64,000 nucleotides of DNA from Eledone cirrhosa (lineage: Eukaryota): positions 63,054,001-63,118,000 of the forward strand of contig OZ024745.1 of the NCBI GenBank assembly GCA_964016885.1, given 5' to 3'. This document shows positions 18,966 through 59,606 of the stretch, in pieces. Below the pieces are notes generated by a model that did no database searches, was not told where the DNA came from, and saw only the letters and a list, made by a program, of their open reading frames with translations. The position numbers and the translations under genes were made by a program. Within the stretch, counting starts at the first letter, position 1. The number at the start of each line of letters is the position of its first letter.

Positions 18966-18974
18966 AATTTGTCA

Positions 18975-28149: not shown

Positions 28150-31054
28150 GAATGTTACATTCCGTGAACTTTTCCCTGGGCAAAATTATTCGAAGAGACA
28201 TGACCTTATTGCCAGAGTGTTCAGACTGAAACTGGCTAAACTCATGGCTTTAATCAAAAAGGTCAGGTAGTTGGAGCTGTAAAATGTGGCATTTTCACCG
28301 TCGAATGGCAAACATGAGGGCTGCCACATGCTCACATTTTGATTTGGTTAGCTGATAAAATCAATTCATTCAAATGCTATAGACAGCTTAATTTCGGCTG
28401 AAATCCCTAACCCAGCAACTGACCAGGAATTACATGACATCGCCAAAGGTAAAATGATTCATGGTCCGTGTGCGTCGGGTCCTAATGAGCATCACACGTG
28501 TCTCAAAGGGGATGGGGTCGTGCAGTAAGGAATACCCCCAAAAATGTGCTGACCAGACTCAGACTGGTGGCGACGGGTACCCCCTGTGCAGGCGGAGACG
28601 GCCCGAGAACGGTGGCTTCACCACAACAGTAAAAGGAGGTCAAGTCGACAATAGATGGGTGGTCCCTTACTGCCCGCTTCTGTTGAAGACGTTCAACGCC
28701 CACATCAACGTTGAGTTTTGCAACTCGTCAAGTCGATAAAATACATATGCAAATATGTAAATAAGGGCTCTGATGCCGCAATGTTCACATTTCAAGCTGA
28801 AAATAACAGGGACGAGGTCACAGAATACCTGGTGGGGCGGTACATCTGTAGCAATGAAGCTTTTTGGCGCCTATTTGGTTTACCCTACACCAACGTCACC
28901 CCGCCATCGTACAGCTTGCGGTACATTTGGAAAATGGGCAAAGGGTTTACTTTACGGACCAAACCGCCGCCAAGTAGGCCGCCGATCCAAAAGAGACGAC
29001 TCTGACAGGTTTCTTCAAACTTTGCCAGTTCGATACATTTGCGCAAACAATTTTGTACTCCCAGGTTCCATCCTACTTTATATGGTCGAAAAACACTTGG
29101 GTGCGAAGAAAGTCAGGTCAGGCTGCTGAAAGACATCCTGTGTAAAATTTGACAGCTGTCTTGGAAGGGTTTACATTGTGCCCCCAAGTCAGCATGAGTG
29201 CTATCATCTCCGCCTTCTCCTGCATGAAGTTGTAGGCCGACAAAGTTTTCAGGACCTCAAAACTGTTGATGGAGAAATATGTGATACGTACAGGGAAGCC
29301 TGCTTTAAGCGTAGTCTTTTGGAAGATGATTCGCAATGGGATTCCACTTTAGCAGAGGGTGCTTTGTTGAAATCGCCTAAAGGTCTACGGGAACTCTTTG
29401 CTATTTGGCTTCAAAAGTGTGAATTGGGTGATCCCATATCTTTATGGTCAAGTACAGAGACTTCATGTCTGAGGACTTCCTGCGCCTGGCTCATCTGCAG
29501 TATACTTCAGTGGAAGTTGGTTACAGCGACATTATCTACAACAGGGCAATCATTGATATCGCGGACGTCCTCCTCGACATGGGTGGGAGTGAGTTGGCGA
29601 CGTATGGCTTGCCGTCAACCGTCAGAGAGGAAGCTAACACGTTGGCCCCGGATTTGTTGCGGGAAACAGCATATGACATCGAATCTCTTTCCCAATACTT
29701 AGAGGAAAATGAGCCCAAACTTCTGTTGAACCAAAGGTTGGCCTATTTAACTATCATTGACGCGGTTCAAAATCAGACTGGGAGTATTAACTTTCTCGAT
29801 GCTCCTGGGGGTACCGGAAAAACTTATCTAACGAAATTGATTCTCGCTAAGATTCTTCAGGAGAAAAAAATTTCGTTGGCCGTTGCATCGTCCGGGATCG
29901 CTGCTACTTTGCTGCTGCGAGGCAGGACAGCACATTCCACCCTTAAACTCCCCTTGGATTTAGTAAAAACTGAGACACCAACATGCAATATCAGCAAGAG
30001 TTCACACGAAGCTCTGGGTCTCAAAAAATGTTGCCTCATTGTTTGGGATGAGTGCACAATGGCACACAAGGGTGCCCTTGAGGCATTGGACGTTTCCCTG
30101 AAAGACATTAGGGATTCTACGGCTCCTATGGGTGGCGTAACCCTTCTGCTATCAGGGGATTTTTGGCAAACGCTGCCTGTCATTCCCAATCGGACAAGAG
30201 CTGATGAAGTGCGTGCCTGTCTTAAGACGTCCATGTTGTGGCTGCAGGTGAAGAGTTTGTACCTGAGCACAAATATGCGTGCTCATTTGCATGGTGACAA
30301 CATGTCTGCAGCATTTGCTCAGAATATTTTAGCACTTGGTGAGAGCAAGGTCCCTGCGGATGACAAGGGTGGCATAGCAATCGACTCCCTGTGCAACATT
30401 GTGAGCAGCCCCTCTGAATTTTGGGAAGCATTTTTTTCCTAATGTCTCATCTAACTTTAAAAACCTCGATTGGCTCAGCGAAAGAGCCATCCTTGCTCTG
30501 AAAATACCATGGATAATTTTATTAACGAGCAGCTGATTGAGAAAATTCCCAGTAAAGAATACATTTTCAAATCTATCGACCGGACGTCAGACTCCGACGA
30601 TATGGTTAATTATCCGGTTGAGTTATTAAACTCCCTTGAGCCCCCAGGGCTCCCACCTCACATTCTTAAGCTTAGGGTTGGCTGTCCCATTATGCTAATA
30701 AGGAAATTGCGTTCACCAAAGCAGTGCAACGGTACCACTTGATTGAGGCCACCATTGTAACGGGGTGCGGGAGAGGGGAGAATGTTTTCATTCCAAGGAT
30801 GAACCTTAGCCCCTGGCGTCAGATATCCCGTTCGATTTCCGGCGATCCCAATTTCCGGTGAGACCATGTTTTGCCATGTCCATTTACAAGTCACAAGAGC
30901 AAACATTGTCGTGGCGGGCATCCATTTGGGGGAGCCATGCTTCTCCCATGGCCAACTTTATGTTTCCTGTTCCAGCGTAGGGAGCAGGAATGGACATTTT
31001 GCTTACACACCTCAAGGGGTGACACGCAATATCGTCTACAAAGAGATGCTATAG
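28150..31054 (+). pseudogene. Helitron Rep/Pif1 helicase, with multiple frameshifts and stops
   Basis: ORF pieces 28034-28270, 28461-28739, 28718-29005, 29178-29702, 29444-30442, 30470-30742 and 30866-31054 are colinear parts of RepHel. Confidence 0.92.
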
Positions 31055-34060: not shown

Positions 34061-34290
34061 TATATATATAATTAAGTTAAAAATGTACATCCACATATGT
34101 ATACTGAAATACTAGTATGCATATGAATACACACACGTGTACATATGTAGATGTACCGAGTTTTTCACTGGTCACTTTACTGTGAGTGTCCAGCTATTCT
34201 GTATGTAAACACGCAGACAAACCGGTTTTTAGAGTCATACTGGTTTTTGAGGAAACACCTTTCCTCTATTCTCCAGAAAGCCAGACAAGG

Positions 34291-37200
34291 AATATTGGAC
34301 TAGTTTCGATGTTGTTACATCTCATCAGCAATATTTACCTATCTTCCGGCCTTTCTAGAGAATCGTAAAAGCACATATCGTTATATGCTTTTTCTATGAA
34401 AATTAGTAGTGGGCAGACTAACTTGCATAGAGCGTGAGTACGTACCGGTTCAGCGGAGACGATAAAAACAAATAACGAAACGAAATCAAACCTCGTTTCG
34501 TTTGTAACTCACTCTTGTATGACTGACGCTTAAACAATTAAGTTAAAAATGTACATCCACATATGTATACTGAAATACTAGTATGCATATGAATACACAC
34601 ACGTGTACATATGTAGATGTACCGAGTTTTTCACTGGTCACTTTACTGTGAGTGTCCAGCTATTCTGTATGTAAACACACAGACAAACCGGTTTTTAGAG
34701 TCATACTGGTTTTTGAGGAAACACCTTTCCTCTATTCTCCAGAAAGCCAGACAAGGAATATTGGACTAGTTTCGATGTTGTTACATCTCATCAGCAACAT
34801 TTACCTATCTTCCGGCCTTTCTAGAGAATCGTAAAAGCACATATCGTTATATGCTTTTTCTATGAAAATTAGTAGTGGGCAGACTAACCTGCATAGAGCG
34901 TAAGTACGTACCGGTTCAGCGGAGACGATAAAAACAAATAACGAAACGAAATCAAACCTCGTTTCGTTTGTAACTCACTCTTGTATGACTGACGCTTAAA
35001 CAATTAAGTTAAAAATGTACATCCACATATGTATACTGAAATACTAGTATGCATATGAATACACACACGTGTACATATGTAGATGTACCGAGTTTTTCAC
35101 TGGTCACTTTACTGTGAGTGTCCAGCTATTCTGTATGTAAACACACAGACAAACCGGTTTTTAGAGTCATACTGGCTTTTGAGGAAACACCTTTCCTCTA
35201 TTCTTCAGAAAGCCAGACAAGAAATATTGGACTAGTTTCGATGTTGTTACATCTCATCAGCAACATTTACCTATCTTCCGGCCTTTCTAGAGAATCGTAA
35301 AAGCACATATCGTTATATGCTTTTTCTATGAAAATTAGTAGTGGGCAGACTAACCTGCATAGAGCGTAAGTACGTACCGGTTCAGCGGAGACGATAAAAA
35401 CAAATAAGGAAACGAAATTAAACCTCGTTTCGTTTGTAACTCACTTTTGTATGACTGACGCTTAAACAATTAAGTTAAAAATGTACATCCACATATGTAT
35501 ACTGAAATACTAGTATGCATATGAATACACACACGTGTACATATGTAGATGTACCGAGTTTTTCACTGGTCACTTTACTGTGAGTGTCCAGCTATTCTGT
35601 ATGTAAACACACAGACAAACCGGTTTTTAGAGTCATACTGGCTTTTGAGGAAACACCTTTCCTCTATTCTACAGAAAGCCAGACAAGGAATATTCGACTA
35701 GTTTCGATGTCGTTACATCTCATCAGCAACATTTACCTATCTTCCGGCCTTTCTAGAGAATCGTAAAAGCACATATCGTTATATGCTTTTTCTATGAAAA
35801 TTAGTAGTGGGCAGACTAACCTGCATAGAGCGTAAGTATGTACCGGTTCAGCGGAGACGATAAAAACAAATAAGGAAACGAAATTAAACCTCGTTTCGTT
35901 TGTAACTCACTTTTGTATGACTGACGCTTAAACAATTAAGTTAAAAATGTACATCCACATATGTATACTGAAATACTAGTATGCATATGAATACACACAC
36001 GTGTACATATGTAGATGTACCGAGTTTTTCACTGGTCACTTTACTGTGAGTGTCCAGCTATTCTGTATGTAAACACACAGACAAACCGGTTTTTAGAGTC
36101 ATACTGGTTTTTGAGGAAACACCTTTCCTCTATTCTCCAGAAAGCCAGACAAGGAATATTGGACTAGTTTCGATGTTGTTACATCTCATCAGCAACATTT
36201 ACCTATCTTCCGGCCTTTCTAGAGAATCGTAAAAGCACATATCGTTATATGCTTTTTCTATGAAAATTAGTAGTGGGCAGACTAACCTGCATAGAGCGTA
36301 AGTACGTACCGGTTCAGCGGAGACGATAAAAACAAATAACGAAACGAAATCAAACCTCGTTTCGTTTGTAACTCACTCTTGTATGACTGACGCTTAAACA
36401 ATTAAGTTAAAAATGTACATCCACATATGTATACTGAAATACTAGTATGCATATGAATACACACACGTGTACATATGTAGATGTACCGAGTTTTTCACTG
36501 GTCACTTTACTGTGAGTGTCCAGCTATTCTGTATGTAAACACACAGACAAACCGGTTTTTAGAGTCATACTGGCTTTTGAGGAAACACCTTTCCTCTATT
36601 CTCCAGAAAGCCAGACAAGGAATATTGGACTAGTTTCGATGTTGTTACATCTCATCAGCAACATTTACCTATCTTCCGGCCTTTCTAGAGAATCGTAAAA
36701 GCACATATCGTTATATGCTTTTTCTATGAAAATTAGTAGTGGGCAGACTAACCTGCATAGAGCGTAAGTACGTACCGGTTCAGCGGAGACGATAAAAACA
36801 AATAAGGAAACGAAATTAAACCTCGTTTCGTTTGTAACTCACTTTTGTATGACTGACGCTTAAACAATTAAGTTAAAAATGTACATCCACATATGTATAC
36901 TGAAATACTAGTATGCATATGAATACACACACGTGTACATATGTAGATGTACCGAGTTTTTCACTGGTCACTTTACTGTGAGTGTCCAGCTATTCTGTAT
37001 GTAAACACACAGACAAACCGGTTTTTAGAGTCATACTGGTTTTTGAGGAAACACCTTTCCTCTATTCTGCAGAAAGCCAGACAAGGAATATTGGACTAGT
37101 TTCGATGTTGTTACATCTCATCAGCAACATTTACCTATCTTCCCGCCTTTCTAGAGAATCGTAAAAGCACATATCGTTATATGCTTTTTCTATGAAAATT

Positions 37201-38995
37201 AGTAGTGGGCAGACTAACCTGCATAGAGCGTAAGTACGTACCGGTTCAGCGGAGACGATAAAAACAAATAACGAAACGAAATTAAACCTCGCTTCGTTTG
37301 TAACTCACTTTTGTATGACTGACGCTTAAACAATTAAGTTAAAAATGTACATCCACATATGTATACTGAAATACTAGTATGCATATGAATACACACACGT
37401 GTACATATGTAGATGTACCGAGTTTTTCACTGGTCACTTTACTGTGAGTGTCCAGCTATTCTGTATGTAAACACGCAGACAAACCGGTTTTTAGAGTCAT
37501 ACTGGTTTTTGAGGAAACACCTTTCCTCTATTCTCCAGAAAGCCAGACAAGGAATATTGGACTAGTTTCGATGTTGTTACATCTCATCAGCAATATTTAC
37601 CTATCTTCCGGCCTTTCTAGAGAATCGTAAAAGCACATATCGTTATATGCTTTTTCTATGAAAATTAGTAGTGGGCAGACTAACTTGCATAGAGCGTGAG
37701 TACGTACCGGTTCAGCGGAGACGATAAAAACAAATAAGGAAACGAAATTAAACCTCGTTTCGTTTGTAACTCACTTTTGTATGACTGACGCTTAAACAAT
37801 TAAGTTAAAAATGTACATCCACATATGTATACTGAAATACTAGTATGCATATGAATACACACACGTGTACATATGTAGATGTACCGAGTTTTTCACTGGT
37901 CACTTTACTGTGAGTGTCCAGCTATTCTGTATGTAAACACGCAGACAAACCGGTTTTTAGAGTCATACTGGTTTTTGAGGAAACACCTTTCCTCTATTCT
38001 CCAGAAAGCCAGACAAGGAATATTGGACTAGTTTCGATGTTGTTACATCTCATCAGCAATATTTACCTATCTTCCGGCCTTTCTAGAGAATCGTAAAAGC
38101 ACATATCGTTATATGCTTTTTCTATGAAAATTAGTAGTGTGCAGACTAACTTGCATAGAGCGTGAGTACGTACCGGTTCAGCGGAGACGATAAAAACAAA
38201 TAACGAAACGAAATCAAACCTCGTTTCGTTTGTAACTCACTCTTGTATGACTGACGCTTAAACAATTAAGTTAAAAATGTACATCCACATATGTATACTG
38301 AAATACTAGTATGCATATGAATACACACACGTGTACATATGTAGATGTACCGAGTTTTTCACTGGTCACTTTACTGTGAGTGTCCAGCTATTCTGTATGT
38401 AAACACACAGACAAACCGGTTTTTAGAGTCATACTGGTTTTTGAGGAAACACCTTTCCTCTATTCTCCAGAAAGCCAGACAAGGAATATTGGACTAGTTT
38501 CGATGTTGTTACATCTCATCAGCAACATTTACCTATCTTCCGGCCTTTCTAGAGAATCGTAAAAGCACATATCGTTATATGCTTTTTCTATGAAAATTAG
38601 TAGTGGGCAGACTAACCTGCATAGAGCGTAAGTACGTACCGGTTAAGCGGAGACGATAAAAACAAATAACGAAACGAAATTAAACCTCGCTTCGTTTGTA
38701 ACTCACTTTTGTATGACTGACGCTTAAACAATTAAGTTAAAAATGTACATCCACATATGTATACTGAAATACTAGTATGCATATGAATACACACACGTGT
38801 ACATATGTAGATGTACCGAGTTTTTCACTGGTCACTTTACTGTGAGTGTCCAGCTATTCTGTATGTAAACACGCAGACAAACCGGTTTTTAGAGTCATAC
38901 TGGTTTTTGAGGAAACACCTTTCCTCTATTCTCCAGAAAGCCAGACAAGGAATATTGGACTAGTTTCGATGTTGTTACATCTCATCAGCAATATT
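34291..38995 (-). ncRNA. Eleven family B hammerheads (34291-34335, then every +466)
   Basis: Reverse complement AAT(A/G)TTG-CTGATGA-GATGT AACA ACATC-GAAA-CTAG-TC-CAATATT. Confidence 0.92.
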
Positions 38996-39754
38996 TACCT
39001 ATCTTCCGGCCTTTCTAGAGAATCGTAAAAGCACATATCGTTATATGCTTTTTCTATGAAAATTAGTAGTGGGCAGACTAACTTGCATAGAGCGTGAGTA
39101 CGTACCGGTTCAGCGGAGACGATAAAAACAAATAACGAAACGAAATCAAACCTCGTTTCGTTTGTAACTCACTCTTGTATGACTGACGCTTAAACAATTA
39201 AGTTAAAAATGTACATCCACATATGTATACTGAAATACTAGTATGCATATGAATACACACACGTGTACATATGTAGATGTACCGAGTTTTTCACTGGTCA
39301 TTTTACTGTGAGTGTCCAGCTATTCTGTATGTAAACACACAGACAAACCGGTTTTTAGAGTCATACTGGTTTTTGAGGAAACACCTTTCCTCTATTCTCC
39401 AGAAAGCCAGCGTGTTTACATACAGAATAGCTGGACACTCACAGTAAAGTGACCAGTGAAAAACTCGGTACATCTACATATGTACACGTGTGTGTATTCA
39501 TATGCATACTAGTATTTCAGTATACATATGTGGATGTACATTTTTAACTTAATTGTTTAAGCGTCAGTCATACAAAAGTGAGTTACAAACGAAGCGAGGT
39601 TTAATTTCGTTTCGTTATTTGTTTTTATCGTCTCCGCTGAACCGGTACATACTTACGCTCTATGCAGGTTAGTCTGCCCACTACTAATATTCATAGAAAA
39701 AGCATATAACGATATGTGCTTTTACGATTCTCTAGAAAGGCCGGAAGATAGGTA

Positions 39755-41197
39755 AATGTTGCTGATGAGATGTAACAACATCGAAACTAGTCCAATATTC
39801 CTTGTCTGGCTTTCTGGAGAATAGAGGAAAGGTGTTTCCTCAAAAACCAGTATGACTCTAAAAACCGGTTTGTCTGTGTGTTTACATACAGAATAGCTGG
39901 ACACTCACAGTAAAGTGACCAGTGAAAAACTCGGTACATCTACATATGTACACATGTGTGTATTCATATGCATACTAGTATTTCAGTATACATATGTGGA
40001 TGTACATTTTTAACTTAATTGTTTAAGCGTCAGTCATACAAGAGTGAGTTACAAACGAAACGAGGTTTGATTTCGTTTCGTTATTTGTTTTTATCGTCTC
40101 CGCTGAACCGGTACGTACTCACGCTCTATGCAAGTTAGTCTGCCCACTACTAATTTTCATAGAAAAAGCATATAACGATATGTGCTTTTACGATTCTCTA
40201 GAAAGGCCGGAAGATAGGTAAATATTGCTGATGAGATGTAACAACATCGAAACTAGTCCAATATTCCTTGTCTGGCTTTCTGGAGAATAGAGGAAAGGTG
40301 TTTCCTCAAAAACCAGTATGACTCTAAAAACCGGTTTGTCTGCGTGTTTACATACAGAATAGCTGGACACTCACAGTAAAGTGACCAGTGAAAAACTCGG
40401 TACATCTACATATGTACACGTGTGTGTATTCATATGCATACTAGTATTTCAGTATACATATGTGGATGTACATTTTTAACTTAATTGTTTAAGCGTCAGT
40501 CATACAAAAGTGAGTTACAAACGAAGCGAGGTTTAATTTCGTTTCGTTATTTGTTTTTATCGTCTCCGCTCAACCGGTACGTACTTACGCTCTATGCAGG
40601 TTAGTCTGCCCACTACTAATTTTCATAGAAAAAGCATATAACGATATGTGCTTTTACGATTCTCTAGAAAGGCCGGAAGATAGGTAAATGTTGCTGATGA
40701 GATGTAACAACATCGAAACTAGTCCAATATTCCTTGTCTGGCTTTCTGGAGAATAGAGGAAAGGTGTTTCCTCAAAAACCAGTATGACTCTAAAAACCGG
40801 TTTGTCTGTGTGTTTACATACAGAATAGCTGGACACTCACAGTAAAGTGACCAGTGAAAAACTCGGTACATCTACATATGTACACGTGTGTGTATTCATA
40901 TGCATACTAGTATTTCAGTATACATATGTGGATGTACATTTTTAACTTAATTGTTTAAGCGTCAGTCATACAAGAGTGAGTTACAAACGAAACGAGGTTT
41001 GATTTCGTTTCGTTATTTGTTTTTATCGTCTCCGCTGAACCGGTACGTACTCACGCTCTATGCAAGTTAGTCTGCCCACTACTAATTTTCATAGAAAAAG
41101 CATATAACGATATGTGCTTTTACGATTCTCTAGAAAGGCCGGAAGATAGGTAAATATTGCTGATGAGATGTAACAACATCGAAACTAGTCCAATATT
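39755..41197 (+). ncRNA. Four family B hammerheads (39755-39799, 40221, 40687, 41153)
   Basis: aatgttg-ctgatga-gatgtaacaacatc-gaaa-ctag-tc-caatatt read directly. Confidence 0.92.
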
Positions 41198-41517
41198 CCT
41201 TGTCTGGCTTTCTGGAGAATAGAGGAAAGGTGTTTCCTCAAAAACCAGTATGACTCTAAAAACCGGTTTGTCTGCGTGTTTACATACAGAATAGCTGGAC
41301 ACTCACAGTAAAGTGACCAGTGAAAAACTCGGTACATCTACATATGTACACGTGTGTGTATTCATATGCATACTAGTATTTCAGTATACATATGTGGATG
41401 TACATTTTTAACTTAATTGTTTAAGCGTCAGTCATACAAAAGTGAGTTACAAACGAAGCGAGGTTTAATTTCGTTTCGTTATTTGTTTTTATATATATAT
41501 ATATATATATAAAATAG

Positions 41518-43404: not shown

Positions 43405-45321
43405 ATAAATTAATAAAATAATGAATAAACAAAGAAACAGTTCCTTATATTAAAAAAATGTCATCATTTTACGATCGTTTCTAGGATATATATGTGTTAG
43501 AGTTGGTATGCATATTCTATAGATCTATGTACAATATTTATAGAAACTATCAACAACCATCAACAACCAAAAACATAAAACAAAATATAAGTGCCTATAA
43601 TGCATATAAATGTAAAAAACCCATGAGTATACCACCAGTACATCAAACTAACCATAATATCTCCTCAGATACAGGGTTCACGAAAGGTTGTAACTGTAGA
43701 AACAAGGCAAACTGTCCATTAAAAGGAAATTGCCTTGTTAATAACATAGTATATAAATGTAAAGTTAACACTAAGGACTCAATTTATTCATATATAGGAG
43801 CTACCTCTAACAAATTTAAGGTAATATTTAATACCCACAAACATAGTTTTAAAAATGCCGCACTAGCTAATACAACATCTCTAGCTGAAATAATTAATAG
43901 TTATAGAAAGAGGAATATAGATTATGACCTGACCTGGAGTGTGCTCAAAAGGGCCACCCCTTATCAAAATAGTAGATATGAATGTAGATTATGTTCCCAA
44001 GAACTTTTTGAAATAATGAAATCTAAGGATATCCTATTAAATAAGCGACAGGAATTAATAATATCGTGTAATCATAAACTGAGAAAAACCTTTAAATATT
44101 ATAAACCTAATTAATATACACTTTAGAAATTAATATATAAACTGTTTTTAATTTAGTTAACCTATAATTAATATTCTACTACTGATGAACTACATAATTT
44201 TACTTTCCTTCTTACAACTATCATTTCCTAAAACTGATACCATTAAGTAAACATATATAATGCTTTAACTTCAGGTTATGACTCTATGTTCCTTGAAATC
44301 TATATATATTTATTATTTCTCACTAATAAATGTAATCCCCCCCCAATAATTATATGTATATGTAAGTGTGTATGTGTGTGTGTATATATATATATGTATG
44401 TATATATGCGTGTATATATATATATATATGTGTGTATATGTGTGTGTGTATGTGTATATATATATATATATGTATATATATATGTATTATTTTTATATTC
44501 TTTTAATTTAACCCTCATCTTTAACAGCACCTTTCAAATGCATCTAACTCTTATTTATCATATCTATATGTATTAGTATAATTTTATCAATATAAATATA
44601 CCCATCAATTAAATTAATTTATATTCTTTTCATAGATGTTTTTTTTTTTTTTTTTTTCACTAACACACTTATCGTAAAACTTTAGTCTCCTTAGATATTT
44701 GCATTGGCATTACTATTTTATAACAGTAACTGCTTGTATACCTTTTACTGACCTGACCTATTTTCACCCCTAAAATAAGCTTCAATTACTACTATTTTAC
44801 CATTTGGCCAATTATTAACTTTCTATTGCTTAATTCTAAACCTCTTACCAAACAGACAGAATATATTAGATCTTTGTTGGTTTTATTCAATGAACAAATA
44901 AAATTATTTCTGAGGTCAGCATACGACCTATTTTCTTCCCTAAAATAATCCTTCATTCATAATATTCTTTTCCCTCCATAACTGAAATCTACCTTCCTCT
45001 ACCCATAATTTAAGGTTCTTCACTACTATATTACTATCTTGACCCTCACTATCTCTCTATTGGTCAATTCAAAACCTGTTCCCAAACAGACCTATTGTAT
45101 TGAATCTTTGTTTTTTTCAATAAACAAATATCATTATTTCTGAAGACAGCATATATATGTGTAGGTATGTATATTCCCTCTGATAGTTTGTATAAATATT
45201 GTACATAGATCTATGGAATATGCATACCAACTCTAACACATATATATCCTAGAAACGATCGTAAAATGATGAATTTTTTTAATATAAGGAACTGTTTCTT
45301 TGTTTATTCATTATTTTATTA

Positions 45322-45424: not shown

Positions 45425-45916
45425 AACGGCGATGAATTTGATTTGCGAGGTTTTTGATATGAAATCGTGTGTCGAAACAAATATTGTTATACTTGGGGAG
45501 GGTCATATTTGTGTAATATTGCCAGAATTAATAACAGAACACACTCACTGTTTGGTTGGAATTCGCTTTTCGCTTCTGTGTCTTTTATATCGGTAATCTA
45601 ATTTATTCGGTCCTCGATGTTGCCATTGACTGACCAACGGTCAAAAATACAGATACAATATAGACACAAACACATATATATAGTTTATCAAAGTTCTTTC
45701 GTTGCACATCTGCAACATCGTCAGTGGTGCTATTATTTCCTCCCGTTGCATTGTATTTTCTACGCCGTTGGTCAGCCAATGGCAACATTGAGGACGGAAT
45801 AAATTAGATTACCGATATAAAAGACACAGAAGCGAAAAGCGAAAACCACCCAAACAGTGAGTGTGTTCTGTCATTAATTCTGGCAATATTACACAAATAT
45901 GACCATCCCCAAGTAT

Positions 45917-45921
<5 letters not shown>
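45425..45921. mobile_element. Family H tail-out inverted module with hammerhead-like motif (45687-45728, minus)
   Basis: 45767-45921 is the inverse of 45481-45640; CTGACGA-T-GTTGCA GATG TGCAAC-GAAA-GAAC-TT. Confidence 0.75.
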
Positions 45922-45981
<60 letters not shown>

Positions 45982-45985
<4 letters not shown>

Positions 45986-46033
45986 TATGTATGTATACGT
46001 ACATACATATATGTATACAGACGTACAGTAGCA

Positions 46034-46089
<56 letters not shown>

Positions 46090-46444
46090 TACATACAGGT
46101 ACACATACATATATGCACGCATCAGTTTAGTGGACGCTTATTATAACGCCGCTTTGTTCGTTTGTAAACAAACTGAACAGCCTGAATTTATGCCATACGG
46201 TGTTAAGGCAACCACGTCACCTTTTTGTTCAACTATCTGGCAGATGGGTAAACGGTGCTGATAATAGCTAACAAGCTTGAAACTAGTACATCGTTCCTGT
46301 GTCAGTGTTGAACAAAAAGGTGACGTGGTTGCCTTAACACCGTATGGCATAAATTCAGGCTGTTCAGTTTGTTTACAAACGAACAAAGCGGCGTTATAAT
46401 AAGCGTCCGCTAAACTGATGCGTGCATATATGTATGTGTACCTG

Positions 46445-46514
<70 letters not shown>

Positions 46515-46948
46515 TGCTACTGTACGTCTGTATACATATATGTATGTACGTATACATACATACTTACATTTAAGTAAGTGCCATACTAAAAGTGAGAAAT
46601 GAAATTTCGTTTTCATTTTTTTTTTTAACTTATCGTTTTCGGTATGCCTGACCGTTTAACTCACTCAATATGCAAATTAGGCTGCTCAGCCGTTAATTTT
46701 CATAAGGAAAGTATATACTTTCGAACGTTCAACTATCTGGCAGATGGGTAAACGGTGCTGATGATAGCTAACAAGCTTGAAACTAGTACATCGTTCCTGT
46801 GTCAGTGTTGAACAAAAAGGTGACGTGGTTGCTTTAACACCGTATGGCATAAATTCAGGCTGTTCAGTTTGTTTACAAACGAACAAAGCGGCGTTATAAT
46901 AAGCGTCCGCTAAACTGATGCGTGCATATATGTATGTGTACCTGTATG

Positions 46949-49952: not shown

Positions 49953-52001
49953 TAAATGTAAGTATGCATGTATACGTACATACATATATGTATACAGACG
50001 TACAGTAGCATGCACATATATATATATATACATACATATGCATACAGGTACACATACATATATGCACGTATCAGTTTAGCGGCGCTTATTATAACGTCGC
50101 TTTGTTCGTTTGTAAACAAACTGAACAGCCTGAATTTATGCCATACGGTGTTAAGGCAACCACGTCACCTTTTTGTTCAACACTGACACAGGAACGATGT
50201 ACTAGTTTCAAGCTTGTTAGCTATCATCAGCACCGTTTACCCATCTGCCAGATAGTTGAACGTTCGAAAGTATATACTTTCCTTATGAAAATTAACGGCT
50301 GAGCAGCCTAATTTGCATATTGAGTGAGTTAAATCGGTCAGGCATACCGAAAACGATAAATTGAAACAAAATGAAAACGAAATTTCATTTCTCACTCTTA
50401 GTATGGCACTTACTTAAATGTAAGTATGCATGTATACGTACATACATATATGTATACAGACGTACAGTAGCATGCACATATATATATATATATATATACA
50501 TATATACATACATATGCATACAGGTACACATACATATATGCACGTATCAGTTTAGCGGCGCTTATTATAACGTCGCTTTGTTCGTTTGTAAACAAACTGA
50601 ACAGCCTGAATTTATGCCATACGGTGTTAAGGCAACCACGTCACCTTTTTGTTCAACACTGACACAGGAACGATGTACTAGTTTCAAGCTTGTTAGCTAT
50701 CATCAGCACCGTTTACCCATCTGCCAGATAGTTGAACGTTCGAAAGTATATACTTTCCTTATGAAAATTAACGGCTGAGCAGCCTAATTTGCATATTGAG
50801 TGAGTTAAATCGGTCAGGCATACCGAAAACGATAAATTGAAACAAAATGAAAACGAAATTTCATTTCTCACTCTTAGTATGGCACTTACTTAAATGTAAG
50901 TATGCATGTATACGTACATACATATATGTATACAGACGTACAGTAGCATGCACATATATATATATATATACATATATGTATGTACGTATACATGCATACT
51001 TACATTTAAGTAAGTGCCATACTAAGAGTGAGAAATGAAATTTCGTTTTCATTTTGTTTCAATTTATCGTTTTCGGTATGCCTGACCGATTTAACTCACT
51101 CAATATGCAAATTAGGCTGCTCAGCCGTTAATTTTCATAAGGAAAGTATATACTTTCGAACGTTCAACTATCTGGCAGATGGGTAAACGGTGCTGATGAT
51201 AGCTAACAAGCTTGAAACTAGTACATCGTTCCTGTGTCAGTGTTGAACAAAAAGGTGACGTGGTTGCCTTAACACCGTATGGCATAAATTCAGGCTGCTA
51301 AGTTTGTTTTCAAACGAACAAAGCGACGTTATAATAAGCGCCGCTAAACTGATACGTGCATATATGTATGTGTACCTGCATGCATATGTATGTATATATG
51401 TATATATATATATATATGTGCATGCTACTGTACGTCTGTATACATATATGTATGTACGTATACATGCATACTTACATTTAAGTAAGTGCCATACTAAGAG
51501 TGAGAAATGAAATTTCGTTTTCATTTTGTTTCAATTTATCGTTTTCGGTATGCCTGACCGATTTAACTCAATATGCAAATTAGGCTGCTCAGCCGTTAAT
51601 TTTCATAAGGAAAGTATATACTTTCGAACGTTCAACTATCTGGCAGATGGGTAAACGGAGCTGATGATAGCTAACAAGCTTGAAACTAGTACATCGTTCC
51701 TGTGTCAGTGTTGAACAAAAAGGTGACGTGGTTGCCTTAACACCGTATGGCATAAATTCAGGCTGTTCAGTTTGTTTACAAACGAACAAAGCGACGTTAT
51801 AATAAGCGCCGCTAAACTGATACGTGCATATATGTATGTGTACCTGTATGCATATGTATGTATATATGTATATATATATATATATGTGCATGCTACTGTA
51901 CGTCTGTATACATATATGTATGTACGTATACATGCATACTTACATTTAAGTAAGTGCCATACTAAGAGTGAGAAATGAAATTTCGTTTTCATTTTGTTTC
52001 A

Positions 52002-52006
<5 letters not shown>
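49953..52006. mobile_element. Family A inverted tandem array (~470 bp unit); hammerheads at 50195 and 50671 (minus), 51188 and 51656 (plus)
   Basis: About 2.2 units in each direction; inversion within an internal (TA)n at ~50965; (TA)n at both ends. Confidence 0.92.
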
Positions 52007-52073
<67 letters not shown>

Positions 52074-52096: not shown

Positions 52097-54750
52097 AAAG
52101 GTAAACAGAAATAACAACACAATAGGTACAGTATATATTAGGTTAACGCTTGATATAGCAGGAAGAGGGTCTTAACGTTTCGGACGCTAGTCCTTCATCA
52201 TAAGAAAGAATGAGAAATAAAATAGATTAAGGGGACGGGCGGGTTGGAATTGGAAAACAGGTCTTTAGATAAAAATAACAGGTCCATTCATGTTGACATC
52301 TCTTGCAAAAGTGTTGGTGCTGGCGCTTTTTGTATGATTGGTTTTTTAGAAAAGTGGATGATGGAGCGCGTCTACCTGAAATAGAAAAAAAAAACGTTTT
52401 GTAAAAAGTGCTATACTTGAGCACGTGCGTAAGCATGTGTTTGTGTGTGCGTGTGTGTGTGTGTGTCTCTGTGTGTGTGTGTGTGTGTGTATGTGCGTGA
52501 GTGTGTGTGTATGTGTGTGTTATTATAGGAATGGGTTTCAAAATTGTCGTCCTGGCTACAGAGTCGACGAAGACGGAGGAATTGGGAATAGGCTCTGGAG
52601 TATTTGGTGTGGGTTGGATGGGAGGAGATGAAGTCGAGATAAAATTGGGTGTCTGTTGGTTTAATGATGATGGAAGTAGAGAGGGTGTGGTGAGAGTGAT
52701 TAATAGATTGAGAGATATCTAGAAAAACGACAAAGAATCGAATACGGAGGCGGTGAAATTGAGAGCAGGATGGAAAGATTGGACAAAAGAAAGAAAACAG
52801 TCGAGCTGTTCTCGTCGTGATAGAGAGGTGGCGCCGATACAGTCGTCTATGTAACGACCGTATAGCTCAGGAGTCGGTCCAGAGTACTGGGAGAAGATCT
52901 GGGCTTCGACGTAGCCAACAAACAAGTTGGCATAGTTTGGACCCATTCTGGTTCCCATCGCTACCCCAGAGACCTGCTGGTAAAATTCACCCGAAAAAGA
53001 AAATCCATTAAGGGTGAGAACAAGCTCAGCCAGGGCGTAAATCTAAACAATGCTGGAGAGCGCGGAGGCCGTCATCATGAGTGATGACGGTATAGAGAGA
53101 AGTGATGTCCAGGGTAAAGAGAAGGCGGGAGGGACCAGGAGGGAAGGAGAAAGAGTTGAAGAGTATAAGGGCATGATTTGTATCGTGGATGTGGGAGGGG
53201 AGATTGCCAACCAACGGGGCGAGGATGGTGTCTAAATGTTCAGAAATTATCTCGGTGGGGCAGTTGCACGCAGAAACAATAGGACGGCCAGGATTATTTT
53301 GTTTGTGTATTTTGGTGAGGAAGTATATGGTGGGTGTGCGAGGGGTGCGTAGAATAAGGTTGGTGGCTGTTGGGGTGAGAGGAGGATATGAGCTTGTGGA
53401 TGGTGGAGGACACGAGTTGTTGGTAGCCAGGAGTGGGGTCAGAGGATAAAGGGCGGTAAAAAGGGTATTGTGAAGCTGGCGGAGAGCCTCAGCCCTATAG
53501 AGGTCAGTGCTCCAAACCACCACAGCACCATCTTTGTCAGCGGGTTTGATGACATTGTCATCGCGACGCCGAAGGTTGACAAGAGCGGAGAGCTCAGTTC
53601 ACGTGATGTTAGAGCGACGAGAATGCTGGTGGAAACAGAACCGATTCACAGTAAGCCGACAAGTATCGGCAAAGGAGTCGAAGGTGCTGAACTGGCCAGA
53701 GCTCGGCGTCCAATGTGATTGCCGGCGACTGAGACGAGTGAAGTCATCCGTCTGTGTCGATGATGGCGTGTCGTGAATAAAAACTTTCAGCTTTAATCGA
53801 CGGAAGAACCCTTCAATCTCGGCACGTGTGCGGAACTCGTCGCAGGTAGATGTGGTTGGTATAAAACGCAACCCACGGGCGAGGAGGGAGCGCTCTGTTT
53901 CGGAGAGTGGTAAGTCCTGGGGTATGGGGACTACAGTGAAAGAACTTGAAAGAGTGAAATAGGCGGAGGCGGAGGTGCCAAGGTGGTTGGGCAAAGCGTA
54001 TGCAGATTCAGTGGTAGGTGACGGGATAGAAGGGGTTAGGGATGGAGGTGATATGAGTATGGGTGGTGACGGCAGGCAGGGAGCGGAGAGAGTCGAGTTA
54101 TGATTCTTTATGGAAGTGAGGAAATTGAAAAGGAGGCGATTGAGGTAAAGGATGAATTGGATAAGGGATTGGTCGAGGAAAGGGTAGCGAGTGGAGGAGA
54201 GATAGAGGTAGCCCTTGGGGAGATCTCGGTCGAGAGAACGGATTTGGGTGAGAGTTGCTCGAATGGTCGCCCGCATGAGCTGGCGAGAGGAGCAGGTAAG
54301 GATGGGCTCAGTAGTGGGAGCAGAGTAAGAGGTGGGGTGAAACTTGAGGCGGAAACCGCGGGGCATGAGGTGGTGGTGGAGACAGCGACTTAAAAATGTG
54401 ATGTGACTGTCGTATCGTGTTTTTTGGTGAAGATGAGGTTGGAGAATTGGATGCTTATGGGGGGGGGGGCTTTAGAGTATAATGGAGCTGGCGGAGAAAA
54501 GATGTGAGATTGCGCATATTGAAGTTACTAGGGTGGGAGTGAAAAATAGACGGATGAGAAGAAGAAGGTGGTGTAAGAAGATTGTAGTAGAGGAAAAGTG
54601 GTAGAGTCGTGGAAAGAAGCAAAGAAAATTTCAAAGATACGAAAGATTTGCTGGTGGAAGTTCAGGTGTACTCCGGGTTGGTAGCCAGTTTCGAGGTGAA
54701 AGTCCAATCAGAGAATCCAACAAATTTTCAGAAGTCCACGTAAGCGTTGA
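52097..54750 (-). mobile_element. Decayed Penelope-like element (Neptune-like RT) with 3' pseudo-LTR and minimal hammerhead (52170-52205, C3>A)
   Basis: YFLTKIHKQNNPGRPIVS, FTLDITSLYT, MGTRMGPNYANLF, GRYIDD, YSQFLRLRRLCS; endonuclease not seen; ends in (CA)n. Confidence 0.92.
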
Positions 54751-55060: not shown

Positions 55061-55897
55061 CGAGGTGTGTCAGAAAAGGTCCAGGATTGATGTCACACAA
55101 GATTTATTTCAAACCCAAACTTAACACTAAGAGTAATCCTCCTGGAGTCTAATACATTTTTCCATCCTTTTCTGCCACGCTTGCATGCACTCCTGGAAGG
55201 ATTCTTCCAGGATCCTCCGCTGTTCCGTCGTCACGGCATTTTTAATGTTGTCCACGTCTTCAAAACGGGTCCCCTCCGGGTTGTACTCGAAGATCCATGA
55301 CCCATCATCGGTGATGACTGTCCCTAGCAAGTCTGGTTCGCTTTTAAGACGCTCGAGGATGTCCTGGCACACATGCATGCGTCGACCCTTCAGGTCATCG
55401 ATCAGCAGTTTTGGCACCATCTTCGCGCAGACTTTCCACATGTCCAAATGTTCAGTGAGAATCTTCCAGACGCTGTCCTGATTCATGCCTAGCTCATTTG
55501 CCATCAGTCGAACAGTCAGCCGACTGTCCTGGATGTTGAGGGCCTTCCGCTCCTGGGGTCAACTTCCCCGTCCTCGCGTTCTTCTTTAAACCTCTTGCAC
55601 CACTCAAAAACACGTGAGCGTTACATCGTCTCAACGCCATACACTTTCGGCAGCAATCCTGTGCTTCTGACGGAGTTTTCAAGTCTATTCGTTGCTCTGT
55701 GCTCATTGATTAACGACCTGAAACAGAGAACATGTATATAAAATTATGAAGAAAAAAGTTCGATTGCTGCAGAGAGCTAAGATTACAGTTACATACTCCA
55801 GGGGGATTACTTTGAAGGAGACAACTCTTAGTGTGAAGTTTGGGTTTGAAATAATTCTTTTGTGACATCAGTCCTGGAATTTTTCTGACACACCTCG
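55061..55897 (-). mobile_element. Internally deleted mariner (Tc1/mariner) DNA transposon with TIRs and TA target duplication
   Basis: TA-cgaggtgtgtcagaaaa ... ttttctgacacacctcg-TA; KVCAKMVPKLL and VITDDGSWIFEYNPE joined directly to GTRFEDVDNIK. Confidence 0.93.
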
Positions 55898-55984: not shown

Positions 55985-56447
55985 CGTGAGAGGGAGGGAG
56001 ACAGAGGGGAGGGACAGAGAGAGGAGCGTGAGAGGTGAGGTAGAGAAATAGAAAAATATAGATAAGTGTGTGTGTGTCGAATGAAAGAGTATATTGTTTT
56101 GGATGATGGACACAATATTAAGTTGAAGACATCTAAATTTGTTATATCAATAAATCTAATTTTGAGGGCGATCATTTTTATAGACAACTTAATTTAGTTC
56201 AAATGGCTAAACTATATTTCTCAAATACAAATTATCATATATATGTCTAAAAATATTACCGTGGAAAATACCGAGGATAATTATTCCTCTTAATTTTTAA
56301 CGTACTGTGGTGAGATGTACTGTCATTAATGCGTCGAAACATCAGAGAACCATGGCAGACACCCGAAAAGGGGGAATTTTCCTTATGTTTGTGTTTCTCT
56401 TACGTTTTCTAAATAATATTTATTAGTAACCTCATATATATATATAT

Positions 56448-56849
56448 ATTTGTTTTGCGAGGTTTTTGATATGAAATCGTGTGTTGAAACAAATATTGTT
56501 ATACTTGGGGAGGGTCATATTGTTGTAATAATATTGCCAGAATTAATAACAGAACACACTCACTGTTTGGTTGGTTTTCGCTTCTGTATCTTTTATATCA
56601 GTTAATTTATTCGGTCCTCAATGTTTACCATTGACTGACCAACGGTCAAAAAATACTGATATAATATAGACACAAACACATATATGTAAATAAGCAGATT
56701 AAATAAAGATGGCGTAGATATACAATACTACAGCAGGAACATAATAACACCACTGACGATGTTGCAGATGTGCAAAGAAAGAACTTTGTTAGACTATATA
56801 TATGTGTTTGTGTCTATATTATATCTGTATTTTTTTACCGTTGGTCAGT

Positions 56850-56855
<6 letters not shown>
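56448..56855. mobile_element. Second family H tail-out module; hammerhead-like motif at 56744-56791 (plus)
   Basis: Homologous to 45445-45765; inverted right arm; (TA)n at both ends. Confidence 0.75.
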
Positions 56856-56944
<89 letters not shown>

Positions 56945-57034
56945 GTAAATACGGTATGTATGTATATATATGTATATACATATATATATAATTATCTCTT
57001 GTGTTCTATACACATACATATACATACACACACA

Positions 57035-57104
<70 letters not shown>

Positions 57105-57106
<2 letters not shown>

Positions 57107-58614
57107 GATGTATATATAATGTATTTTGCAATACACTTTATGCTTAATTAAAAGCATTTTGAAGACCGTAAGCTATTGTTTTAAAGTAGTGACAAATTCA
57201 CTTACTTTGATCTCAGCAAACAGGGGAGATAAGCCGACAAGTCTTGTTTCGCTTTGGTTGAAGCTTATCAAGGCCAACTACCCCTCCTGTCTACCGAGAT
57301 CACTGATGTTATATTCTTATAGAAATCTAGTAAATAATCAGGAGCTGATTATGCAGAGCGGTTGTTGGTCAGGCAGAAATTAAAAAATAGAATTGGAGCT
57401 CTGAAATAGCAATATATATATGGATGTATATATAATGTATTTTGCAATACACTTTATGCTTAATTAAAAGCATTTTGAAGACCGTAAGCTATTGTTTTAA
57501 AGTAGTGACAAATTCACTTACTTTGATCTCAGCAAACAGAGGAGATAAGCCGACAAGTCTTGTTTCGCTTTGGTTGAAGCTTATCAAGGCCAACTACCCC
57601 TCCTGTTTACCGAGATCACTGATGTTATATTCTTATAGAAATCTAGTAAATAATCAGGAGCTGATTATGCAGAGCGGTTGTTGGTCAGGCAGAAATTAAA
57701 AATTAGAATTGGAGCTCTGAAATAGCAATATATATATATATGGATGTATATATAATGTATTTTGCAATACCCTTTATGCTTAATTAAAAGCATTTTGAAG
57801 ACCGTAAGCTATTGTTTTAAAGTAGTGACAAATTCACTTACTTTGATCTCAGCAAACAGGGGAGATAAGCCGACAAGTCTTGTTTCGCTTTGGTTGAAGC
57901 TTATCAAGGCCAACTACCCCTCCTGTCTACCGAGATCACTGATGTTATATTCTTATAGAAATCTAGTAAATAATCAGGAGCTTCTAATTTTAATTTCTGC
58001 CTGACCAACAACCGCTCTGCATAATCAGCTCCTGATTATTTACTAGATTTCTATGAGAATATAACATCAGTGATCTCGGTAGACAGGAGGGGTAGTTGGC
58101 CTTGATAAGCTTCAACCAAAGCGAAACAAGACTTGTCGGCTTATCTCCCCTGTTTGCTGAGATCAAAGTAAGTAAATTTGTCACTACTTTAAAACAATAG
58201 CTTACGGTCTTCAAAATGCTTTTAATTAAGCATAAAGTGTATTGCAAAATACATTATATATACATCCATATATATATATTGCTATTTCAGAGCTCCAATT
58301 GTAATTTTTAATTTCTGCCTGACCAACAACCGCTGTGCATAATCAGCTCCTGATTATTTACTAGATTTCTATAAGAATATAACATCAATGATCTCGGTAG
58401 ACAGGAGGGGTAGTTGGCCTTGATAAGCTTCAACCAAAGCGAAACAAGACTTGTCGGCTTATCTCCCCTGTTTGCTGAGATCAAAGTAAGTGAATTTGTC
58501 ACTACTTTAAAACAATAGCTTACGGTCTTCAAAATGCTTTTAATTAAGCATAAAGTGTATTGCAAAATACATTATATATACATCCATATATATATTGCTA
58601 TTTCAGAGCTCCAA

Positions 58615-58620
<6 letters not shown>
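57105..58620. mobile_element. Family C: ~316-320 bp inverted tandem array (2.7 + 2 units, junction ~57982)
   Basis: Repeated 85 aa pseudo-ORF at 57126/57442/57762 (+) and 58247/58565 (-); microsatellite-bounded. Confidence 0.93.
57232..58459. ncRNA. Five family C hammerheads with U3-A8 core (minus: 57232, 57548, 57868; plus: 58098, 58416)
   Basis: GGCC-TTGATAA-GCTT CAACCA AAGC-GAAA-CAA GAC TTG-TC-GGCT. Confidence 0.8.
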
Positions 58621-58679
<59 letters not shown>

Positions 58680-58750
58680 ATCTTTACCAACGTATCTGTT
58701 TATATATGTATATATATATATATATACATACATGTGTGTGTGTGTATATA

Positions 58751-58782
<32 letters not shown>

Positions 58783-58906
58783 TATATGTGTGTGTGTGTA
58801 TCTATTTATTTGGATATATTTGTACATGTAAGTTGGTAAAGATATACATGTATATATATATATATATATATTTACATATACACATATATATATATATACA
58901 TATTTA

Positions 58907-58958
<52 letters not shown>

Positions 58959-58959
58959 C

Positions 58960-59035
<76 letters not shown>

Positions 59036-59606
59036 TATATATATATATATATATGAATGTGAGTATGTATATGTATGTGCATAGAGCACAAGAGATAATT
59101 ATATTTCCATAACATTCAATGATATTCGGAGTAATTTTTCTCTTGGAAATGTTTGTAGGTTAAACAGATTAAAGTGTAAATGAATATATATATAAAATAA
59201 TCTAATAACTGTCCTACTGATAACCCATCTTCAAAGTTTTAAGAAGTAATTATCAGACTGATAACAGCTGCCACATGATTGACTACAATACACAATGAAT
59301 GTACTAGAGGGCTTTAAAAACTTCAAATGACGGTGAATATATACTTAAATACAATCATACGTGACAATAGGAATATTCAAGTACAACAACTGGTTTAATG
59401 CACGCAAACGACGGGAATATAATAAAGGAGAAAACAAGTACATTTGCGAAAATAATAAAAGTGTTAAACTATCGGCAATGTGCTGATGGTTGTAAATGTT
59501 TGGGAAAATATGAAAACGTCAGCATTTGTAAAATAATCAGTAACTTTGTGATAAATAAATATGTAGGTGTAATATCTTTGTATCAATAGAAATATAATTT
59601 AAGCAA

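What the first reader, a model, noticed from the sequence alone, without database searches (positions are those of the whole stretch)
57105..58620. Family C hammerhead uses a compensated U3-A8 core (UUGAUAA)
All five copies read GGCC-UUGAUAA-GCUU/AAGC-GAAA-CAA(GAC)UUG-UC-GGCU. Established: positions 3 and 8 form a Watson-Crick pair in the active fold, so C3-G8 to U3-A8 is a compensatory double change. A CUGANGA search would miss it. Stem III here is a real 4 bp hairpin, so monomeric cleavage is possible. The near-identical copies imply the variant amplified recently.
Basis: partly seen in the sequence, partly recalled or inferred. Interest (0 to 1): 0.75.

Follow-up and report, generated by a model that had tools for sequence, protein, structure and literature searches.

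The report
Retrozyme hammerhead with swapped U3-A8 core
This is one of about 2,150 copies of a short repeat in an animal genome whose hammerhead-ribozyme motif carries a U-A core pair instead of the usual C-G, a natural variant already described; the repeat likely spreads through Penelope-type machinery, and its RNA is predicted to cut itself mainly as a pair of neighbouring copies rather than alone.

Summary
Observation confirmed: 5 of 5 copies (three minus, two plus, head-to-head, in (TA)n) carry a type I hammerhead motif with a U3-A8 core. Genome-wide the clade has 2,152 U3-A8, 573 C3-G8 and 33 uncompensated cores. A tree of the flanks alone gives one origin of U3-A8 (98/92) inside C3-G8 relatives. 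The swap is older than this subfamily: it persists in subfamilies down to 80% identity while stems I-III changed by compensation. Natural U3-A8 is already published (PMC3088659; about 1,300 hits in Schistosoma PLE hammerheads, PMC4209133). The 'monomer' inference is weak. Stem III is a palindrome in every subfamily, its fifth pair covaries although only 0-3 nt separate the arms, and the dimer fold is predicted 5.4 kcal/mol below two monomers. Insertions show Penelope hallmarks: 55 of 78 arrays inverted, 47 of 55 with a tail at one end only. Verdict: a new family of non-LTR retrozymes with a known core variant. The one new lead is that position 3 also covaries with stem III position 15.4 (C-G, U.G, U-A), which suggests a self-blocking helix in the circle. 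No cleavage or RNA data.

The parts
57105..57982 (-). Inverted arm: 2.8 tandem units, 5'-truncated at the junction; 3' end is the 'short' type, ending at the internal AT tract (unit position 131)
57983..58621 (+). Forward arm: 2.0 tandem units; 3' end is the 'long' type (unit position 168), followed by (TA)n
57232..57275 (-). Type I hammerhead motif copy 1, U3-A8 core; predicted cleavage after C17 at 57236
57548..57591 (-). Type I hammerhead motif copy 2; predicted C17 at 57552
57868..57911 (-). Type I hammerhead motif copy 3; predicted C17 at 57872
58098..58141 (+). Type I hammerhead motif copy 4: stem I 58098-58101/58138-58141, core 58102-58108 (U3 = 58102, A8 = 58107), stem II 58109-58122, G12-A15.1 58123-58126, C17 at 58137
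58126..58136 (+). Palindromic stem III (5-nt arms around one A): a 4-bp hairpin in a monomer, a 10-bp helix in a dimer
58416..58459 (+). Type I hammerhead motif copy 5; predicted C17 at 58455
58138..58455 (+). Predicted 318-nt monomer between two cleavage sites (candidate circular RNA); circular fold -79.1 kcal/mol against -52.0 +/- 4.7 for 100 shuffles
   Evidence: prediction only
58073..58170 (+). Long extension of stem I that closes the monomer; the 11 outer pairs counted are 96.8% paired across 17 subfamily representatives, 3 with changes on both sides
58596..58621 (+). 26-nt tail beyond the internal AT tract, present at only one end of the insertion (Penelope-type end)
56855..57093 (.). 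Left (TA)n microsatellite at the insertion site
58620..59054 (.). Right (TA)n microsatellite at the insertion site

Best explanation
The array is one insertion of a non-coding 316-318-bp tandem repeat family (about 2,150 U3-A8 units in this genome) whose hammerhead motif has a compensated U3-A8 core and a palindromic stem III; its RNA likely self-cleaves mainly as a double hammerhead formed by two copies, and the family is likely copied by Penelope-type reverse transcriptase into (TA)n. Shown: the motif, the copy counts, one origin of U3-A8 inside C3-G8 relatives, compensatory changes in stems I-III, palindromic stem III in all subfamily consensus types, and inverted arrays with a one-sided tail in (TA)n. 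Inferred: (1) read-through transcription of tandem units; (2) cleavage after GUC by the dimer fold, releasing a roughly 318-nt monomer; (3) ligation to a circle, as shown for coral, mussel and axolotl retrozymes; (4) rolling reverse transcription by an unidentified Penelope-like element, giving more-than-unit tandem copies with a 5' inversion. On this reading U3-A8 is a tolerated swap that kept the ribozyme working through several later waves of amplification.
For: Core: 2,152 U3-A8, 573 C3-G8 and 2,758 Y3/R8 in the clade pattern, so 33 uncompensated. The 13 U3-G8 are scattered single copies in mixed backgrounds; the 4 of 13 loci holding further copies have paired neighbours. Tree of 38 flank-only rows, ribozyme left out: U3-A8 forms one side of a branch, 98/92, 98% of bootstrap trees, nested in C3-G8 rows. 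Covariation on 17 representatives: 95.5% of 509 cells paired, 11 of 30 pairs change on both sides, slid controls 35-46%; all four stem II pairs, the first stem I pair and the 3-8 pair change on both sides. Dimer: stem III pair 5 is A-U in 9 and G-C in 8 rows and paired in 17 of 17, although in 16 of the 17 rows only 0-2 nt lie between the arms (3 nt in one). Several subfamilies have perfect 10- or 12-nt palindromes. Predicted hairpin +1.2 against duplex -8.7 kcal/mol; natural genomic dimer: double-hammerhead fold 5.4 kcal/mol below two monomer folds. Mobilisation: 55 of 78 complete arrays are head-to-head; 47 of 55 have one short and one long end; 102 of 122 such ends abut TA-rich sequence. 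These match the PLE features of an inverted 5'-truncated copy, a 30-40-bp tail at one end and microsatellite bias (PMC8557442 passages). Penelope-like ORF fragments are common in the fetched loci (family names assigned by eye).
Against: No cleavage or expression data. Even the dimer-active fold is predicted 6.6-8.4 kcal/mol above the free ensemble, more than for the C3-G8 families A (2.8) and D (1.5). Nearest-neighbour energies ignore core and tertiary contacts. 21 of 78 arrays hold only one motif and many two-motif arrays have them on opposite strands, so these could not form a dimer in cis. Covariation cells count related sequences; the true number of events is small. No autonomous partner sharing the unit's end was found behind 16 local Penelope-like endonuclease hits. 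The 78 arrays came from search hits, not from a random sample. Purine-3/A8 cores were not counted.
Confidence: 0.72

Rival explanations
1. One reading: the same retrozyme, but each hammerhead cuts efficiently as a monomer through its 4-bp stem III, and the palindrome is incidental or vestigial.
For: Four pairs and a 3-nt loop can be drawn. Coral retrozyme monomers cleave at about 0.8 per min and mussel ones at about 0.1 per min (PMC7229834). The long stem I extension holds the monomer together. Many arrays have one motif per strand. C3-G8 sister subfamily E1 has a monomer penalty of only 1.3-2.0 kcal/mol.
Against: The fifth pair covaries where a monomer loop cannot close. Probability of the active monomer secondary structure is about 1e-5 in an 82-nt fragment. 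Monomer penalty is 4.9-9.4 kcal/mol in all 13 U3-A8 rows folded.
Confidence: 0.2
2. The ribozyme is no longer needed. U3-A8 is a crippled core carried along as the repeat spreads by DNA-level or ribozyme-independent Penelope copying.
For: Naiad PLEs proliferate without canonical hammerheads (PMC8557442). PLE hammerheads have low in-vitro activity (PMC4209133). Insertion ends lie at unit positions 142 and 168, not at the cleavage site.
Against: After U3-A8 arose, stems I, II and III were rewritten by double changes that keep pairing. No uncompensated U3-G8 subfamily amplified. G5, A6, A9, G12-A14 and the GUC site are invariant in 17 of 17 representatives, though these rows were picked by a motif that demands those letters.
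Confidence: 0.06
3. The unit is the terminal repeat (pLTR) of an autonomous Penelope-like element, and the arrays are its truncated insertions rather than an independent retrozyme.
For: PLE pLTRs carry hammerheads, including U3-A8 ones (PMC4209133). The end structure is PLE-like. Retrozymes are reported to derive from pLTRs (bioRxiv 10.64898/2026.07.22.740005, abstract).
Against: Arrays consist only of the unit, up to at least 19 head-to-tail copies (L103). In 20 loci of 9.9 kb no ORF runs into the unit; in L111 the array interrupts a PLE that has its own unrelated small hammerhead.
Confidence: 0.05

Closest known systems
Metazoan non-LTR retrozymes (Cervera and de la Pena 2020, PMC7229834; parts 2-4 of 6 read)
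   Same: Non-coding tandem repeats of 150-450 bp, under 50% GC, with one type I hammerhead per unit, thousands of copies, a self-paired predicted circle, and PLEs in the same genome.
   Different: U3-A8 core. Longer stem III palindrome (10-13 nt). Frequent head-to-head inversion with a one-sided tail, which the parts read do not describe. That paper predicts unblocked ribozymes in most circles, whereas here the core is predicted paired. RNA not shown here.
U3-A8 hammerheads of Schistosoma mansoni Cercyon PLEs (PMC4209133; parts 1-2 of 4 read)
   Same: The same core covariation, about 1,300 hits, linked to Penelope-like elements, with a palindromic helix III region and a dimer model.
   Different: Those are minimal hammerheads, heterogeneous and mostly single. 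Here the motif has full stems I-III in a homogeneous tandem family with a traceable C3-G8 ancestry.
Natural U3-A8 core variants (Perreault et al. 2011, PMC3088659, section 8 read)
   Same: C3-G8 covarying to U3-A8 in several natural hammerheads; the paper says such cores were already shown active in vitro.
   Different: A few examples; no lineage series and no link to stem III sequence in the section read.
Newt and axolotl satellite hammerheads and ASBVd double hammerhead (PMC7229834, PMC6155905 and PMC6765202 passages)
   Same: A palindromic helix III that lets two tandem copies form an extended helix and cleave as a dimer.
   Different: Those have 1-2-bp monomer stems. Here 3-4 bp can form in a monomer, so the dimer requirement may be less strict.
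Penelope-like element insertions, Neptune and Naiad type (PMC8557442 passages)
   Same: Partial tandems, inverted 5'-truncated copy, tail at one end, (TA)n targeting.
   Different: No ORF; the tail is 26-33 nt against the quoted 30-40; the partner element is not identified.

Membership tests
Type I hammerhead ribozyme | Three helices around the core with open ends in stem I | tested here: met
   stems I, II and III 90-100% paired, with changes on both sides
Type I hammerhead ribozyme | Core nucleotides G5, A6, A9, G12, A13, A14, A15.1-U16.1 and an NUH site | tested here: met
   all present, GUC triplet in 5 of 5
Type I hammerhead ribozyme | Watson-Crick pair between positions 3 and 8 | tested here: met
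   U-A in 11 and C-G in 6 of 17 rows; 33 of 2,758 unpaired genome-wide. The strict CUGANGA consensus is not met.
Type I hammerhead ribozyme | Loop 1 to loop 2 tertiary contact | tested here: inconclusive
   An internal loop in stem I and a CAA-led loop 2 align to HH9, but at 27 bits against a gathering score of 52
Type I hammerhead ribozyme | Site-specific self-cleavage | not testable with these tools
   needs an in-vitro assay
Metazoan non-LTR retrozyme | Non-coding tandem unit of 150-450 bp with one type I hammerhead per unit | tested here: met
   the only long open frames overlapping the array are microsatellite read-throughs at its edges
Metazoan non-LTR retrozyme | Dispersed high copy number, monomers to multimers | tested here: met
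Metazoan non-LTR retrozyme | Highly self-paired monomer | tested here: met
   circular fold z = -5.8 against 100 shuffles, 60% paired (prediction)
Metazoan non-LTR retrozyme | Expressed as linear and circular RNA | not testable with these tools
   needs RNA from this organism
Penelope-mobilised non-autonomous element | Tandem and inverted insertions with a one-sided tail and microsatellite targets | tested here: met
   55 of 78 inverted, 47 of 55 short plus long, 102 of 122 ends at TA-rich sequence
Penelope-mobilised non-autonomous element | Terminal sequence shared with an autonomous PLE | tested here: inconclusive
   none behind 16 local endonuclease hits; no genome-wide test
Autonomous Penelope-like element | RT plus GIY-YIG ORF between pLTRs | tested here: not met

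The most novel reading that the evidence does not exclude
Core position 3 does double duty. It pairs with position 8 in the active fold and with stem III position 15.4 in a selected self-blocking helix that keeps the monomeric circle uncut, while the stem III palindrome switches cleavage on in multimers. The series C3-G15.4 (ancestral), U3.G15.4 (first U3-A8 subfamily), U3-A15.4 (later subfamilies), with a parallel U-A to C-G change of the neighbouring pair, would be a second-order compensation of a catalytic-core swap. It would give the blocking mechanism that PMC7229834 says is missing for animal retrozyme circles. Basis. Against: about two evolutionary events, noticed after the fact; the youngest subfamily (556 copies) has U.U at this pair; families A and B also get paired cores in prediction.
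Probability: 0.3. Interest if true: 0.6.

Novelty: new member of a known kind. Interest (0 to 1): 0.36.

Why it matters
The core variant itself is old news. The useful part is that one genome preserves a natural mutational series: C3-G8 ancestors, the first U3-A8 subfamily, and its descendants. This lets one measure how a catalytic-core pair is swapped and what else had to change. The inversion-plus-tail ends are direct structural support for the proposal that Penelope-like elements mobilise animal retrozymes. If the self-blocking helix is real, it explains how these circles avoid cutting themselves. Practically, 78% of this clade's ribozymes are invisible to a CUGANGA search.

Tried and rejected
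Rfam at gathering level: 0 hits in the window. The miRNA-family hits below threshold come from the inversion and microsatellites and were rejected. Sequencing runs: no RNA holder listed. Contigs of 4 of the 6 listed runs were laid; they served only as the lead to the second stem III type and give no expression evidence. Search for a C3-G8 revertant in the window's own subfamily: 0. A relaxed version gave 1 hit in unrelated sequence, rejected as chance. Search for a compensated change of the fifth stem III pair inside the young subfamilies: 14 single changes, 0 of 14 compensated; the compensation appears only between older subfamilies. First tree (79 rows) was noisy from truncated flanks; 19 rows were dropped by a flank-similarity filter and 22 more thinned, leaving 38. 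First array count was not de-duplicated and was replaced, which also left out loci L157-L161, arrays under 200 bp and arrays cut by a locus end. Autonomous partner: none in 20 loci of 9.9 kb or behind 16 endonuclease hits. Pfam gave no significant hit for three Penelope-like fragments of the window. The idea that U3 was fixed because it strengthens the off fold is not supported as an origin: the computed C3-G8 version changes the penalty by 2.3 kcal/mol in this subfamily and 0.9 in the next, and in the first U3-A8 subfamily the pair is only a wobble. Earlier scan findings: none returned. Lunse et al. (PMC5785218) is not held.

Full report
Observation. The window lies in a 3.0-Gb, AT-rich, microsatellite-rich genome. 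I take it to be an animal; an octopus is my guess from size and repeats, and no call names it. Region 57105-58621 is an array of a 316-320-bp unit, 2.8 copies on the minus strand and 2.0 on the plus strand, 5' ends meeting at about 57982/57983, with (TA)n on both sides. Rfam HH9 matches below threshold (27 bits against 52). At gathering level Rfam finds nothing in the window, not even the 15 canonical copies of the 466-bp family, so that miss is not specific to U3-A8.

Genome-wide core states. The window's 30-mer has 615 exact matches, 0 with C at position 3 and 1 with U3-G8. A wider pattern anchored on the cleavage side gave 573 C3-G8, 2,152 U3-A8 and 2,758 for any Y3/R8. That leaves 33 uncompensated: 13 U3-G8 and 20 C3-A8 by subtraction. 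The 13 are single copies, 11 in C3-G8 backgrounds and 2 in U3-A8 backgrounds; the 4 loci that hold further copies have paired neighbours. No U3-G8 lineage amplified. Purine-3/A8 cores were not counted, and exact patterns miss decayed copies. A more distant sister family D (310 bp, about 61% identical, C3-G8, 6-nt palindromic stem III) makes up most of the first 100 listed of 17,840 matches to a shared 25-nt motif.

History. I built a tree from flanks only, leaving the ribozyme out: 38 rows, after dropping 19 of 79 with truncated flanks and thinning 22. U3-A8 rows form one side of a branch (98/92; 98% of bootstrap trees), nested within C3-G8 rows when family D is outside. The earliest U3-A8 subfamily (C4) is 80-82% identical to the window copy, the next (C3) mostly 91-94%, the young ones 95-99%. 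Mean within-group distances are 0.070, 0.047, 0.035 and 0.016 for C4, C3, C1 and C2, from only 4-5 loci each. So the window's subfamily is young but the core swap is not. After it, all four stem II pairs, the first stem I pair and two stem III pairs vary by changes on both sides. On 17 representatives 95.5% of 509 cells are paired, against 35-46% for slid controls. The rows are related and were chosen by motif, so this counts few events, but it is the pattern expected if the U3-A8 ribozyme stayed under selection.

Monomer or dimer. Stem III is self-complementary in each subfamily type: perfect 10- and 12-nt palindromes, or 5-nt arms around 1-3 nt. Its fifth pair is A-U in 9 rows and G-C in 8, paired in 17 of 17. 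In 16 of the 17 rows only 0-2 nt lie between the arms, too few to close a hairpin, so that pair can form only between two copies. Within the young subfamilies 14 copies have lost the G, none compensated. Predicted energies: hairpin +1.2, duplex -8.7 kcal/mol; active monomer 6.9 above the free ensemble; in the natural plus-strand dimer the double-hammerhead fold is 5.4 below two monomer folds but still 8.4 above the free ensemble. These energies ignore core and tertiary contacts. Against a strict dimer rule: 21 of 78 arrays hold one motif, and coral and mussel retrozyme monomers do cleave (PMC7229834). I therefore favour the dimer and do not exclude slower monomer cleavage.

Mobilisation. Of 78 complete, de-duplicated arrays from the fetched loci (search hits, not a random sample), 55 are head-to-head. 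Of these, 47 end on one side at the internal AT tract (position 142 is the mode) and on the other about 26-33 nt further. 102 of 122 such ends abut TA-rich sequence. Inverted 5'-truncated copies, a 30-40-bp tail at one end and microsatellite bias are described for Penelope-like elements (PMC8557442 passages). Fragments that I read by eye as Penelope-like ORFs occur in the window and in many loci (Pfam gave no significant hit). No partner sharing the unit's end was found. Transcription, cleavage, circularisation and reverse transcription are inferred from the published retrozyme model. The predicted 318-nt circle is far more stable than shuffles (z = -5.8).

A lead beyond the finding. In predicted circles of three U3-A8 types the start of the core pairs with the 5' arm of stem III at probability 0.95-0.97. 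This helix covaries. Position 3 with 15.4 is C-G in 6 rows, U.G in 3, U-A in 5 and unpaired in 3; the neighbouring pair is U-A in 9 and C-G in 8. The order on the tree is C-G, then U.G, then U-A. Chance that both variable positions pair Watson-Crick in one state is about 6%, or 9-19% with wobble. PMC7229834 (discussion) says most animal retrozyme circles are predicted unblocked and need another blocking mechanism, so this is a testable candidate. Against it: about two events, noticed after the fact; the 556-copy C2 subfamily has U.U there, though another blocking helix is predicted; families A and B also get paired cores in prediction (0.86-0.99); and templated copying between the two similar short strands could give the same pattern. 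I put it at 0.3.

Comparison with print. The 3-8 pair is established (PMC3884650 passages). Natural U3-A8 covariation was reported in PMC3088659 (section 8) and about 1,300 times in Schistosoma PLE hammerheads in PMC4209133 (parts 1-2 of 4). Dimer cleavage through palindromic helix III is reviewed in PMC6155905 and PMC6765202 (passages). A PLE origin of animal retrozymes is argued in bioRxiv 10.64898/2026.07.22.740005 (part 1 of 5 and passages). Ten searches turned up no description of this family, of a U3-A8 retrozyme or of the 3/15.4 covariation; most hits were seen only as listings. PMC13282606 does not contain the word ribozyme. No supplements were read and Lunse et al. was not held; either could contain such cases.

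Verdict. The feature is real and the compensation reading is right, but the variant is known. This is a new non-LTR retrozyme family, likely dimer-cleaving and Penelope-mobilised, with a well-preserved record of the core swap. Interest 0.36.

Noticed in passing
window 34070-41492: 466-bp tandem family, about 16 units, inverted at about 39410; canonical C3-G8 hammerhead motif with a 6-nt palindromic stem III, 15 copies passing the scan.
   Followed up: partly
window 49953-52007 and 45900-46600: 468-476-bp tandem family, also inverted, related to the 466-bp family (about 67% over 246 nt), C3-G8 core; one fragment at 46258-46264 has an uncompensated C3-A8 core.
   Followed up: partly
L024:2200-3299; G000 genome-wide: Sister family D (310 bp, C3-G8, U.U at the base of stem II) appears far more abundant than the U3-A8 clade; the shared 25-nt motif has 17,840 matches.
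   Followed up: partly
L111:3790-3830: A Penelope-like element with its own small hammerhead-like motif behind the ORF end, unrelated to this family; a family C array interrupts the next copy's ORF (read by eye).
   Followed up: no
window 43485-44114 (+): ORF remnant that looks like a Neptune-type PLE linker plus GIY-YIG endonuclease (name recalled; no significant Pfam hit); relatives in several loci.
   Followed up: partly
window 53026-54471 (-): Broken ORFs that look like a Penelope/Poseidon-type reverse transcriptase region (name recalled).
   Followed up: no
window 29130-30442 (+), 18967-20314 (+), 55127-55558 (-): Remnants that look like a Helitron helicase, an RTE-type LINE and a mariner transposase (by eye; names recalled).
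   Followed up: no
window 45430-45920 and 56440-56850: Another shared repeat with an internal inversion, flanked by (TA)n, seen by eye; possibly a further non-autonomous Penelope-type family.
   Followed up: no
L102 and L106: Arrays containing 304-bp deletion units; in L106 they are interspersed with 316-bp units over at least 8 kb, suggesting later DNA-level expansion.
   Followed up: no
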